A stretch of 64,000 nucleotides of DNA from the human T2T-CHM13v2.0 reference genome, Homo sapiens: the NCBI RefSeq assembly GCF_009914755.1, contig NC_060939.1. One strand, written 5' to 3'. The notes beneath the pieces are model-generated. The model saw only the letters and a list, made by a program, of their open reading frames with translations. It was not told where the DNA came from and made no database searches. The position numbers and the translations under genes are program-made. Below, one piece after another: positions 10,650-54,502 of the stretch. Positions within the stretch are counted from its first letter, which is position 1, and every line of letters begins with the position of its first letter.

Positions 10650-11200
10650 AATGTTTCCAAGCACTCTGGAAAACAATCTACTGAAACGAAACATTTGCCT
10701 ACTCTTTGCCCCAGCAATTCCTCGTAGGTGTGTGTACCCAGCAGAAATGCCCACCGAAAGATATTGTAAGAATATTCATAGCAGCTTTATTCATAATAGC
10801 CCCAAACTGTATATTGATGGTAGGATGAATTAACAAGTTGTGGTATATTCATATAATGAAAAATAATTTAAAAAGAATGAATTACGGATACATGTGGCAA
10901 CACAGGTAAACTTCACAGACATAAAAGTTGAATGAAAGAAGCCAGGCCGAAGTTCCATTTATGCAGAGTTCAGGAACAGGCAAGACTAATTGACAATAAT
11001 AGAAGTTGGAATAGTGGTTACTTCTGGGTGGTGGGGGATTGATACAGAGGGGGCTCATGGGAGCCCTCTGGTGTACCAGAAATGTTGATTTTGATCTGGG
11101 CAGTGGTTTCACAAATGTATTCATACGTAATAATTCATTGAGCTGTGCACTTTATTTTGTTAGACCTCAATAAAAAAGTAAAAAAAAAAAACAAAAAAAA
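10650..11200 (+). mobile_element. Old L1 (L1M-type) 3' fragment forming the NR2E3 3' UTR
   Basis: L1 3'-end motifs CCCAGCAATTCC, ATTCATAGCAGCTTTATTCATAATAGCCCCAAACTG, TGTGGTATATTCAT; ends in AATAAA + A tract. Confidence 0.75.
11169..11174 (+). terminator. NR2E3 polyadenylation signal AATAAA
   Basis: AATAAA about 535 nt after the stop, followed by an A-rich tract. Confidence 0.75.
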
Positions 11201-39040: not shown

Positions 39041-41125
39041 ATGGTGTGAATGCCAACACCCAGGATTTAGCCAGAAGATGTAACCATATCTTGCAAGGGA
39101 CTATCAGTGCCTACAGAAATGAGATAGAACTGAGTTCACTGTCAACAGGGTAAACTGGAGCTACTACTTATCTTTACTTAGCCTACTGACAATGAGCCGG
39201 AATAGCAGTGTTGAACAACCAAGAAAGTGGACTGCCATCTCAACACCAAGATATCATACAGAATTCTGCCTCCCCTATCACTCCTCCCAGTCTCAACATC
39301 AGGGGAGAAAGGGTCAAGAAAGACGAAAGGCAGAAGTGTCTGACAAACAGAAATTACCCACCTACCCTCCAAAGTTTTAAGTTCCAGATAAAGGTCTAGT
39401 CTGCCCTGGGAGGAAGTGAGAAGAGCACTGGATTAAAACTGACTGAAGTTTTAATATGAAGAGAACTGACTCTTAAATACTAGAATGAAATGAATTTTTG
39501 AAAATTATAGAATTGGTTTCAAGATGCTGTTAAGGTAACTGATATCTAATGGGAAAGGGAAGTTTGACAGGCTGGAGTTAAGAGGCAGTTATAGACAAAA
39601 AGAAAAACTGACTTGTATTAGCATCCCAACAAGTTAAGCCTCCTCAATAAAATGGTTACAACACAGGTGGACAGTTTTCCACAAATATTGGTGTTCTCAG
39701 CCTTCCATCCCCCCATTCCTTTTTTTGTACAATCAATGGAACTGAAGAGGGATACCAGCAATGAGATCCTGGTATGAGTTCTAGCATACCATAATATTTA
39801 AGTCTAGAACTAGTCCACCAATTTGGATTAGTTCACTCCTATTTGTAGCTCTGTCTGATAAATGCTAAGTGGATAAGAACCATATTTCTACATCTGGGAG
39901 GACACCATCGGAGTCACAGATATGAATGGACAAATAAGCATTACTAATGATAGGAGATGCTGAAAGTAATAGTAAGTATTTCAAATAATAAAGTGGAGGA
40001 GATTGCTGGGAACACAGCTCATAGAGCAGAAATTAATTTGATATCTCAATGCTTTTAACTTTCACCTTTTAATGATTCAACCAAAGAAGAAACCCAAAAG
40101 GAGGCTCATCTAACAAAGAGGAAAAACCAGTGTATTTTAAATGGATGCTGTTCAACTACACAATACAGAGGAAGGAAAATGAAGGATCTAAAGAAAGAGA
40201 TTAAGAGAAAAGCAAGTGAAAGGTAATCAAAAAGTAGAACCTGACTTGGGGCCGAACATGGAGGGTGGACAGGCATGAATGATAGACAGGGCGGAACAAT
40301 TCCTGGATGAACGAGAGACAATAATGTAGAGTGGCTGTGACACATTGCATTATTAATACATACCGAGACTGAATTGCGGGTAATGTTCATGAATCTAACT
40401 GCAATTAGTACAGGTTTCTGGATTAGGAAGGACATGAAAAGGAAAGCAGAAGGTTAGAATGTACATGTCATTGCCTCATTAAAAGAGAAGGTTTAATCTT
40501 GCAATGGACTGAATATCCATCTTCTGCAGCACTGGAAAAAAGCGCAGCTTATCTATCTGCTTTGAAAAGTAGGTTTATAGCAAAAGGCTCTTCCCTTCCT
40601 GCCTGGATAGCCACCACTAAATTGGGCCTCTCAGAACTGAGCTCCTGAAAATTCATACTACAGAAATGTTTCACTTTTAAGTGGGATTTCTGTTTTTAAT
40701 TTCTGGGGAAAAGATTTAGATAGTATCCCCTATGATGAGTTTTATTTAATATCTTTACTGCCTGCAAAAAGCCCATGCTTATGTTTGTTTTTACAGAAGA
40801 CCCTTCACTACCTTAATCAACAGACCTTTGTTAAGCACTTATTCTGTGCCAGGCAGATTAAATAATAAAGGAAGAAAAAGAATTATTTTAGTGCTAATTT
40901 GCAAACTGTGAAGATATGGGAGGAAGTACTGCTGGACCCCTGAAAGAGTAAGGGCATGATGAAGCCTGCTTCTCTTTAGAGATTTATTGGGAATCTGAAA
41001 TGCGTGCTCATTGTCACAATTTTATTTTACAACTGAGAGGAAGGGTGGCAAATGGGCAATAAATAAACCTTAATGCAGCAGTTTTCCAGTTATCCTGAAA
41101 ACTGACTTCAGGGTAACATATATGG

Positions 41126-41201
41126 ATAACTCCAGTTCTCAATGACCACTAATCAATAAGGCTGAAGCTATTGATTAGTGGTCATTGAGAACTGGAGTTA
41201 T
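41126..41201. repeat. Perfect 33-bp inverted repeat with 10-nt loop
   Basis: ATAACTCCAGTTCTCAATGACCACTAATCAATA / TATTGATTAGTGGTCATTGAGAACTGGAGTTAT. Confidence 0.97.
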
Positions 41202-41793
41202 ATGTTACTGGTTGCAAAGGAAGATATTAAAAAGTGGGCAAACCAAGGAAATAAATTATCGGTTTTACAAGGACTGTCTCAAAACCTAACCCTAAACTCA
41301 AAGAAATACTTTTTGATTACAGTAGACTCATAGATGGAATTCCATTTCCTTAAGAATCAAATGATTCCATTTAAATTCAGTTACAAATGATTAAGTTCTC
41401 TACATCCCAGGGGTCTTGGCAGGACCACCAAAAGTGACACGATTAAAGGCGGGAACAGACAGTGGAAGGAAGTGGAGAAAAAAGTTAGAAGAGGATTACG
41501 TTTTCATAGAAAGGACATGAAAAGAAAGCAAGGCAGATTATTAAGACACCAACATTTTATCTAAATACTTGATTTGAAAAATTCTGCACACTTAATCACA
41601 TAGATTCTATAATGTAACTAAAGAGAGCCAGCAGATTAAACATGAGGAATCCATAGCACCTTGAGATTTGGTGACGTTTTACTTGTTTTTTATAAAAAAG
41701 ATTCTGATAATAATCCTTGTATACACCACAAAAGCACATTTAAATTCCCAAGACAACTCCCATTTTTCCACTATTCCATGTGTTGCATCTTAC

Positions 41794-41917
41794 CATTGAT
41801 CTACGAATCAGTGACAACCTGGTCTTTGCCTTATTCTCAGCAAATTCCAAGCTACTGATATCTTTGAGACGAGCCTTGTATTTATTCATTTGTTCCACAA
41901 CAATCAGTTCCACACAA
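41794..41917 (-). CDS. MYO9A: MYO9A exon after RhoGAP core (CVELIVVEQMNKYKARLKDISSLEFAENKAKTRLSLIRRSM)
   Basis: Manual translation; TTCTGTTTCAG acceptor, GTAAG donor; 124 nt. Confidence 0.95.
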
Positions 41918-53937: not shown

Positions 53938-54502
53938 TCATAAAAAAGAAAATTATTTAAATTTTTAGCTTTAAGTTACAGAAGAAACTAAACCTACAAG
54001 AATCATAGTTACACTAAAGGGTCAAATACATTACAAACTACTTCCTATTTTCAGACTCATTATAATTTTTTAGACTACTGATAATAAAACCAAAGCAAAA
54101 CTGCTGTTGAACCATGGAATAAGTAAATATATAGTAATAGTGGCAATTTTTCTGTGGCAAACTGCTGTCATATTGGTTCCAGTCCTTTCCTAGTATTTGC
54201 TTCATTCAATTTTAGCCCACTAGTAAAAGCAAAGCTTCACAGAACTAATAATAGCACCAGAGCAGATGTATAAAATAAGATGAGTGGAGGCTAAAGGTTC
54301 ACTGTAAGCCAGAACCAAGTTGATCTACAAAGAATCTCTACTCACGTTTTAGGATTTATATATTTAGATATATATTTATATGTAAAATAATATATATATT
54401 ATATTTATATATATTTTATATATTTATATTTTCTACTGTAATCTGCTAAAAGGATTACAGTAGAAAAAGTACCTTTTTGACTGTAATCTAATTTATTCAT
54501 TT

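What the first reader, a model, noticed from the sequence alone, without database searches (positions are those of the whole stretch)
41113..41208. Perfect 33-bp hairpin of pre-miRNA dimensions in a MYO9A intron
Seen: 41126-41158 is the exact reverse complement of 41169-41201, with a 10-nt loop AGGCTGAAGC; pairing extends by GTAACAT/ATGTTAC past a 6-nt bulge, giving a stem of about 40 bp. The arms are complex sequence, not an Alu or a MITE I recognise. Known: Drosha substrates have stems near 35 bp with loops of 10 nt or more, and replication template switching can create such hairpins in one step. Inference: a young template-switch hairpin that is transcribed within MYO9A pre-mRNA and may be a de novo miRNA/endo-siRNA precursor, an ADAR substrate or a cruciform.
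Basis: partly seen in the sequence, partly recalled or inferred. Interest (0 to 1): 0.7.

Follow-up and report, generated by a model that had tools for sequence, protein, structure and literature searches.

The report
Copy-error DNA hairpin in MYO9A intron
A perfect 33-letter inverted repeat sits once in a human MYO9A intron; it likely arose from a single DNA-copying error, like thousands of similar hairpins already described, and is probably an idle scar rather than a working microRNA gene.

Summary
The hairpin is real: 41126-41158 and 41169-41201 pair perfectly (33 bp, 10-nt loop), with 7 more pairs past a 6-nt bulge. Chance expectation is about 1e-8 per genome. It is single-copy in T2T-CHM13, so not a MITE family member, and reaches no Rfam gathering score. 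All pairs are Watson-Crick on both strands, the repeat runs past any TA, and the bulge sits between ATA microhomologies. This is the anatomy expected of a template-switch (fold-back) copy. Published work counts 6,054 such miRNA-sized hairpins in human genes, only 57 (0.9%) in miRBase. The geometry suits Drosha (11 + 22 bp), but the MYO9A-sense RNA has no basal UG, apical UGU/GUG, CNNC or mismatched GHG. The locus is absent from RefSeq's miRNA genes, a published novel-miRNA candidate table and the template-switch miRNA list. Perfect arms suggest an age younger than the simian radiation; absence from a great-ape catalogue weakly suggests it predates the human-gorilla split. No primate alignment or small-RNA data could be examined, so origin and neutrality are inferred. 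Verdict: a new member of a known, common kind; low interest.

The parts
41126..41158 (.). Left arm of the perfect 33-bp inverted repeat (3' arm of the RNA hairpin on the MYO9A strand); more likely the source arm (inferred)
   Evidence: polarity inferred from the bulge
41159..41168 (.). 10-nt spacer/loop; can form 2 more pairs around a 4-nt loop; no UGU/GUG on either strand
41169..41201 (.). Right arm of the perfect inverted repeat (5' arm on the MYO9A strand); more likely the copied arm (inferred)
41113..41119 (.). Outer helix, left side
   Evidence: pair probability 0.86-0.98 in 400-nt context, MYO9A strand
41120..41125 (.). 6-nt bulge present only on the left side; slides to 41123-41128; bounded by an ATA microhomology
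41202..41208 (.). Outer helix, right side
41135..41190 (-). Predicted 56-nt pre-miRNA-like product if Drosha cut 11 bp into the perfect stem (22-bp upper stem); hypothetical
   Evidence: 11-bp rule from PMC6298569 passage
40418..41793 (-). Host MYO9A intron (1,376 nt); hairpin centre is 631 nt from the 5' splice site and 746 nt from the alternative exon's 3' splice site
   Evidence: hub annotation
40364..40417 (-). 54-nt in-frame MYO9A alternative exon (18 aa), context only
   Evidence: hub annotation

Best explanation
This single-copy, perfect 33-bp inverted repeat in a MYO9A intron was likely made in one step when a replicating DNA strand switched template and copied its neighbour backwards, and it is probably a neutral scar. 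Shown: the repeat, its uniqueness, its all-Watson-Crick symmetry, the microhomology-bounded bulge, and the lack of Microprocessor motifs on the transcribed strand. Inferred: the new strand folded back (or jumped to the opposite strand) at the spacer and copied about 40-46 nt. Six bases were lost by slippage between two ATA words, during the copy or later. That makes the left arm the more likely source (about 65%). The event likely fell in the catarrhine or ape lineage. The intron RNA is predicted to fold into the hairpin, and would mostly be degraded with the intron, giving at most trace Drosha products.
For: Chance excluded. Single copy: 121-nt and 1,331-nt queries hit only themselves. A 28-mer (3 mismatches), an arm-plus-loop 24-mer (3 mismatches) and an outer 22-mer (2 mismatches) hit only this locus. 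A 22-mer gave 16 other hits at 3 mismatches against 17 for the reversed control; none of those 16 extends or forms a comparable hairpin (MFE -4.5 to -27.0 against -55.5). Two split-arm patterns match only here. No G-U pair among the 33 on either strand, as expected of DNA copying rather than RNA-level selection (inference). Removing 6 nt between ATA words turns the left side into the exact reverse complement of the right. Base rate: 6,054 template-switch hairpins with 30-55-base stems in human genic regions, 57 (0.9%) in miRBase (PMC10710096). A template-switch length near 40 lies within the range of that paper's miRNA cases (20-88 in the part of Dataset S1 read). No UG, UGU/GUG, CNNC or mismatched GHG on the MYO9A strand in any of 16 registers at the expected places.
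Against: No orthologous sequence was seen, so the abrupt appearance of one arm is untested. The locus is not in the great-ape template-switch catalogue (no chr15 row from 71.7 to 72.1 Mb among about 4,000 events; hg38 position rests on a recalled hg19-to-hg38 offset). That fits an older event but is not positive support. No other complex hairpin of 30 bp or more was found in 248,352 further bases, so such perfect hairpins are not common locally. The stem is exactly 11 + 22 bp, with a paired CUC/GAG at the mGHG place, and motif-free perfect stems are still processed at lower yield (PMC12379101), so 'neutral' is not proven.
Confidence: 0.75

Rival explanations
1. Same inverted self-copy, but made during double-strand-break repair (snap-back or templated insertion of the polymerase-theta type) rather than at a replication fork; equally neutral.
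For: Short microhomologies at the junctions: the ATA pair at the bulge and an 8-bp inverted match 41088-41095 / 41124-41131 that could template the bulge. The repair mechanism is recalled knowledge.
Against: The 8-bp match is within chance for a 220-nt region (another 8-bp inverted match lies at 41079-41104). A single switch-and-return explains the pattern (four-point model, PMC5453318).
Confidence: 0.08
2. The hairpin has a local RNA-level effect on MYO9A: an ADAR-edited duplex, or a structure that hides a QKI-type ACUAAY motif and shifts inclusion of the 54-nt exon.
For: A 33-bp duplex with pair probability near 1 in context. The only ACUAAY in this intron on the MYO9A strand (41179) lies inside the stem (motif recalled).
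Against: 631 and 746 nt from the nearest splice sites. If the right arm is the copy, the motif was created already hidden. The search for MYO9A with A-to-I editing and intron gave 2 papers, seen as listings only, neither pointing to this site.
Confidence: 0.05
3. An unannotated de novo miRNA gene: Drosha cuts 11 bp into the stem and releases a 56-nt precursor whose 22-nt product is loaded on AGO and has targets.
For: 11 + 22 bp geometry and a 10-nt loop. Both predicted strands begin with U. 81 of 99 intragenic template-switch miRNAs are sense-intronic. On the + strand the same register has UG at -14/-13.
Against: No motif on the sense strand. The dominant fold is a roughly 40-bp stem with an asymmetric 6-nt loop, beyond the 35 +/- 1 bp optimum. 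The UG-bearing + strand has no annotated transcript here, and its canonical basal fold has probability 0.04-0.09 against 0.78 for the outer helix. No Rfam gathering hit, no MIR gene in the hub's RefSeq table, not in the PMC4054668 candidate table or PMC10710096 Dataset S1. The one seed match (NR2E3 3' UTR, 11136) is within chance: 0.83 hits expected over the sites tested.
Confidence: 0.04
4. A relic of a palindromic MITE (Made1-like, Tc1/mariner) or other DNA transposon.
For: Size resembles Made1 (37-bp inverted repeats around 6 bp; PMC1784062). TA flanks three possible boundaries or their shifts.
Against: Made1 has 7,850 annotated copies; this has one. TA is self-complementary, so it appears on both sides of any inverted repeat. 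The repeat continues outward past the TA, and no longer target-site duplication exists. An old low-copy relic would not keep 33 perfect pairs.
Confidence: 0.04
5. An assembly or cell-line artefact, or a private variant of CHM13.
For: Only one haplotype was examined.
Against: The flanks are unique, ordinary sequence, and the pattern matches a documented natural mutation class.
Confidence: 0.02

Closest known systems
Template-switch mutation (TSM) hairpins in human genic regions (PMC10710096; four-point model PMC5453318; PMC7954356)
   Same: Single-locus inverted repeat with a short spacer, stem within the 30-55-base class, intronic, no repeat family.
   Different: Not verified here by ancestral reconstruction; the list of the 6,054 loci was not seen, so whether it is one of them is unknown. 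It has a 6-nt bulge that needs a slip or a later indel.
TSM-born miRNA genes such as hsa-mir-4713, -576, -5690 (PMC10710096 Dataset S1)
   Same: Sense-intronic, stem and loop of pri-miRNA size, probably the same origin.
   Different: Those have read stacks and miRBase entries, and 105 of 111 gained later mutations. This one has no entry in the catalogues checked and its 33-bp core is unmutated.
Made1 MITE and the hsa-mir-548 family (PMC1784062)
   Same: About 80-nt near-palindrome that folds on both strands.
   Different: Made1 is a 7,850-copy family; this is single-copy, with the repeat running past the TA.
Motif-free artificial pri-miRNA A2.1 (PMC12379101)
   Same: Perfect Watson-Crick stem without UG, UGUG, CNNC or mGHG.
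   Different: A2.1 is a designed construct on a plasmid and gives lower but measurable yield. This hairpin has a competing outer helix with a 6-nt asymmetric loop.

Membership tests
Template-switch mutation hairpin | Inverted copy of a nearby sequence (at least 15 nt, within about 100 nt) | tested here: met
   33 nt perfect, 10 nt apart; thresholds
Template-switch mutation hairpin | Not explained by a repeat family or simple sequence | tested here: met
   dinucleotide entropy 3.49 bits against 1.2-2.5 for the other hits
Template-switch mutation hairpin | One arm absent in the ancestor; inverted alignment beats forward alignment | not testable with these tools
   No other mammalian genome is held for this window
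Template-switch mutation hairpin | Listed in a published TSM catalogue | tested here: inconclusive
   Not in PMC7954356 s015 or PMC10710096 supplements; 11 of 22 files of PMC9435742 not searched; the 6,054-locus list not seen
Canonical (Drosha/Dicer) miRNA gene | Stem of 35 +/- 1 bp with a loop of about 10 nt or more | tested here: inconclusive
   33-bp core (11 + 22) and 10-nt loop, but the dominant fold is about 40 bp with a 6-nt bulge
Canonical (Drosha/Dicer) miRNA gene | Basal UG, apical UGU/GUG, CNNC, mismatched GHG (enhancers, not absolute requirements) | tested here: not met
   0 of 4 on the MYO9A strand; UG only on the + strand; GHG present but paired. Motif list; the -14/-13 and +3..+5 positions are recalled
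Canonical (Drosha/Dicer) miRNA gene | Precise 22-nt reads from both arms, 2-nt overhangs, AGO loading | not testable with these tools
   No read data; absent from the PMC4054668 candidate table, which lists hairpin sequences and 84 chr15 rows
Canonical (Drosha/Dicer) miRNA gene | Match to a described family | tested here: not met
   Best Rfam score 34.1 bits against gathering 144; structure-only matches; none at gathering
Palindromic MITE (Made1-type) | Many dispersed copies | tested here: not met
   (the DNA search skips very common words, but the pattern scans agree)
Palindromic MITE (Made1-type) | Target-site duplication bounding the inverted repeats | tested here: inconclusive
   Only 2-nt TA/AT flanks, which lie inside the larger inverted repeat; none longer
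Palindromic MITE (Made1-type) | Match to a Dfam/Repbase consensus | not testable with these tools
   No repeat library available

The most novel reading that the evidence does not exclude
An unannotated proto-miRNA caught just after birth. The 11 + 22 bp stem is cut by Drosha from MYO9A pre-mRNA (or better from an antisense or NR2E3 read-through transcript, where UG sits at -14/-13), gives an AGO-loaded 22-mer, and is one substitution away from a mismatched GHG motif.
Probability: 0.05. Interest if true: 0.35.

Novelty: new member of a known kind. Interest (0 to 1): 0.14.

Why it matters
As a neutral scar it matters little: it is one example of a class counted in the thousands. Its modest use is as a clean natural test substrate: an unmutated, single-copy stem of Drosha geometry without motifs, for asking why about 99% of such hairpins never become miRNAs. 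If processing and targets were shown, it would add one more lineage-specific miRNA to the 111 template-switch miRBase loci already reported, not a new principle.

Tried and rejected
Rfam: 14 weak matches in 40500-41800, none at gathering score; those over the hairpin reflect structure alone. Whole-window scan found only an Alu/SRP-type match and the 5S pseudogene. Repeat family: rejected by genome searches and by inspecting the 16 chance loci. Literature: arm sequences in full text, 0 papers; MYO9A + hairpin + intronic + miRNA, 11 listings, nearly all circRNA reviews; MYO9A + novel miRNA + host gene, 1 horse paper; MYO9A + chr15 + alternative exon, 0; MYO9A + A-to-I editing + intron, 2 listings, not read. 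Retina miRNome supplements (PMC4770244): no hit, but 'chr15' also gave none and file 1 was not searched, so this negative is weak. The 'chr15 71' phrase search had no working positive control and was replaced. Two further papers wanted (a large novel-miRNA catalogue and the original motif study) were not held. A random genome-wide sample for the hairpin base rate was not obtained, so the rate rests on 312,352 held bases and on PMC10710096. NR2E3 seed match rejected as chance. The + strand UG was not taken as evidence: TG has background frequency 0.065 per position and two strands and several registers were examined. Cruciform: not testable; a 10-nt, 60% G+C loop is not the favourable type (recalled).

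Full report
Observation. The repeat is as described. Arms 41126-41158 and 41169-41201 are fully complementary over 33 nt with a 10-nt spacer. Seven more pairs (41113-41119 / 41202-41208) follow a 6-nt bulge on the left side. Both strands fold with z near -13 and 0 of 200 shuffles as stable. The chance expectation over the whole genome is about 1.5e-8. In a 400-nt context on the MYO9A strand, 29 of the 33 core pairs have probability 0.99 or more and the outer helix 0.86-0.98. It lies in the 1,376-nt intron upstream of a 54-nt in-frame alternative exon, 631 nt and 746 nt from the splice sites.

Is it a repeat? No family was found. DNA searches of the own genome with 121 nt and 1,331 nt hit only this locus; that search skips very common words, so pattern scans were added. 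A 28-mer, a 24-mer and an outer 22-mer matched only here. A 22-mer at 3 mismatches gave 16 other sites against 17 for the reversed control, and none of the 16 extends in sequence or folds comparably. Two patterns asking for both arms around a variable gap matched only here. The only flanking direct repeats are 2-nt TA/AT words that are part of the inverted repeat itself. Made1, the closest MITE in shape, has 7,850 annotated copies (PMC1784062, passages). Dfam could not be searched.

Origin. All 33 pairs are Watson-Crick on both strands, which fits DNA copying better than selection on RNA structure (inference). Deleting 6 nt between two ATA words makes the left side the exact reverse complement of the right over 40 nt. 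The simplest history is one inverted copy of about 40-46 nt with a slip, or a later slippage deletion in the right arm. Losing six bases by slippage is easier than gaining them, so the left arm is the more likely source; an 8-bp inverted match upstream leaves a templated gain open. This is the product described for short-range template switching (PMC5453318, first part of the text; PMC7954356, passages). Break-repair synthesis could leave the same mark and cannot be told apart from one sequence. The defining test, an ancestor lacking one arm, could not be run: no other mammalian genome is held.

Age. With 66 sites and no substitution, the 5% bound is 0.045 substitutions per site. On recalled human-lineage branch lengths that points to the catarrhine ancestor or later, unless repeated switching re-perfected the arms. 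The locus maps to about hg19 chr15:72,140,516 (anchor from PMC7716234, passage) and, by a recalled offset, to about hg38 71.848 Mb. The great-ape catalogue (PMC7954356 file s015, about 4,000 events; part 1 read and the file searched) has no chr15 row between 71.7 and 72.1 Mb, the nearest found being 72,164,796. That weakly suggests an event before the human-gorilla split; the authors call their catalogue conservative.

How common. PMC10710096 (parts 1-4 of 6 read; Dataset S1 part 1 of 3 read, three supplements searched) reports 53,666 template-switch events in human genic regions, 6,054 giving miRNA-sized hairpins, of which 57 (0.9%) are miRBase loci. Its supplements do not name MYO9A or this position (MYO9A's Ensembl id and the hg38 position are recalled; the largest dataset file could not be read). 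In 312,352 held bases, 6 inverted repeats scored 16 or more: this one, 4 AT-rich microsatellites and one AT-rich 16-bp repeat. So no second complex hairpin was seen in the 248,352 bases outside the window, which is compatible with one per few hundred kb or fewer.

Is it a miRNA? For: Drosha measures 11 bp from the basal junction (PMC6298569, passages), and 11 + 22 equals the 33-bp core; the loop is 10 nt; both predicted strands start with U; motif-free perfect stems are still processed, at lower yield (PMC12379101, passages); fewer than 1% of real pri-miRNAs have all optimal features. Against: on the MYO9A strand there is no basal UG in any of 16 registers, no CNNC within 30 nt, no UGU/GUG in the loop, and the GHG-position triplet is paired (motif list from PMC9856966, PMC8616936 and PMC6298569 passages; exact UG and GHG positions recalled). 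The dominant fold is about 40 bp with an asymmetric 6-nt loop, and large asymmetric loops in the lower stem hinder 3' cleavage. The + strand has UG at -14/-13 in the 22-bp register, but no transcript is annotated there, that basal fold has probability 0.04-0.09 against 0.78, and UG occurs by chance at 0.065 per position. No Rfam family reaches gathering score. The hub's RefSeq table has no MIR gene here. Neither arm occurs in the novel-miRNA candidate table of PMC4054668 (supplements searched; the one 11-letter hit is an unrelated bait) or in full text. The PMC4770244 and PMC9435742 supplement searches were negative but incomplete. A 7-nt seed match in the NR2E3 3' UTR (11136) has P = 0.047 alone, but 0.83 hits were expected over the two seeds and two UTRs tested. 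No read data could be examined.

Other roles. ADAR editing of a 33-bp duplex is plausible from general knowledge and untested. The stem hides the intron's only ACUAAY motif (motif recalled), but far from the exon. Cruciform extrusion is untested.

Verdict. A real, non-random, single-copy hairpin, most likely a template-switch scar without function (0.75). It works like the raw material for de novo miRNAs but fails the tests of miRNA membership that could be run here. New member of a known kind; interest 0.14. Supplements not seen (the full 6,054-locus list, the human polymorphic TSM list, other novel-miRNA catalogues) could already contain this locus.

Noticed in passing
window 41507-41531 and 40424-40448: A 23-of-25 copy of the polypyrimidine tract of the 54-nt MYO9A alternative exon lies 1,083 nt away. 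Local score 38, reached by 0 of 300 shuffles and 0 of 140 other MYO9A tiles. On the MYO9A strand it is followed by a branch-point-like word (41490) and a long pyrimidine tract ending at an AG near 41415: possibly a duplicated or cryptic 3' splice site.
   Followed up: partly
window 40364-40417 (-): The alternative exon is in frame, adds 18 residues and itself contains an ACUAAY motif (motif recalled as QKI-type).
   Followed up: partly
window 41090-41116: A small hairpin directly upstream of the main one (6-bp core 41094-41099 / 41107-41112), plus 8-bp inverted matches 41079-41086 / 41097-41104 and 41088-41095 / 41124-41131; each within chance alone.
   Followed up: no
window 54429-54467: Perfect 15-bp inverted repeat with a 9-nt loop in another MYO9A intron, second longest in the window; perhaps a smaller template-switch scar.
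   Followed up: no
window 40223-40236 and 41307-41320: Perfect 14-bp inverted pair 1,070 nt apart that brackets both the alternative exon and the hairpin; AT-rich, possibly chance.
   Followed up: no
window 11136-11142: 7-nt match to the predicted 5p seed in the NR2E3 3' UTR; judged chance.
   Followed up: yes
L028:9004-9069, L030:4146-4299, L030:6896-6949, L033:5233-5266: AT-rich microsatellite palindromes in MYO9A introns; simple-repeat hairpins.
   Followed up: no
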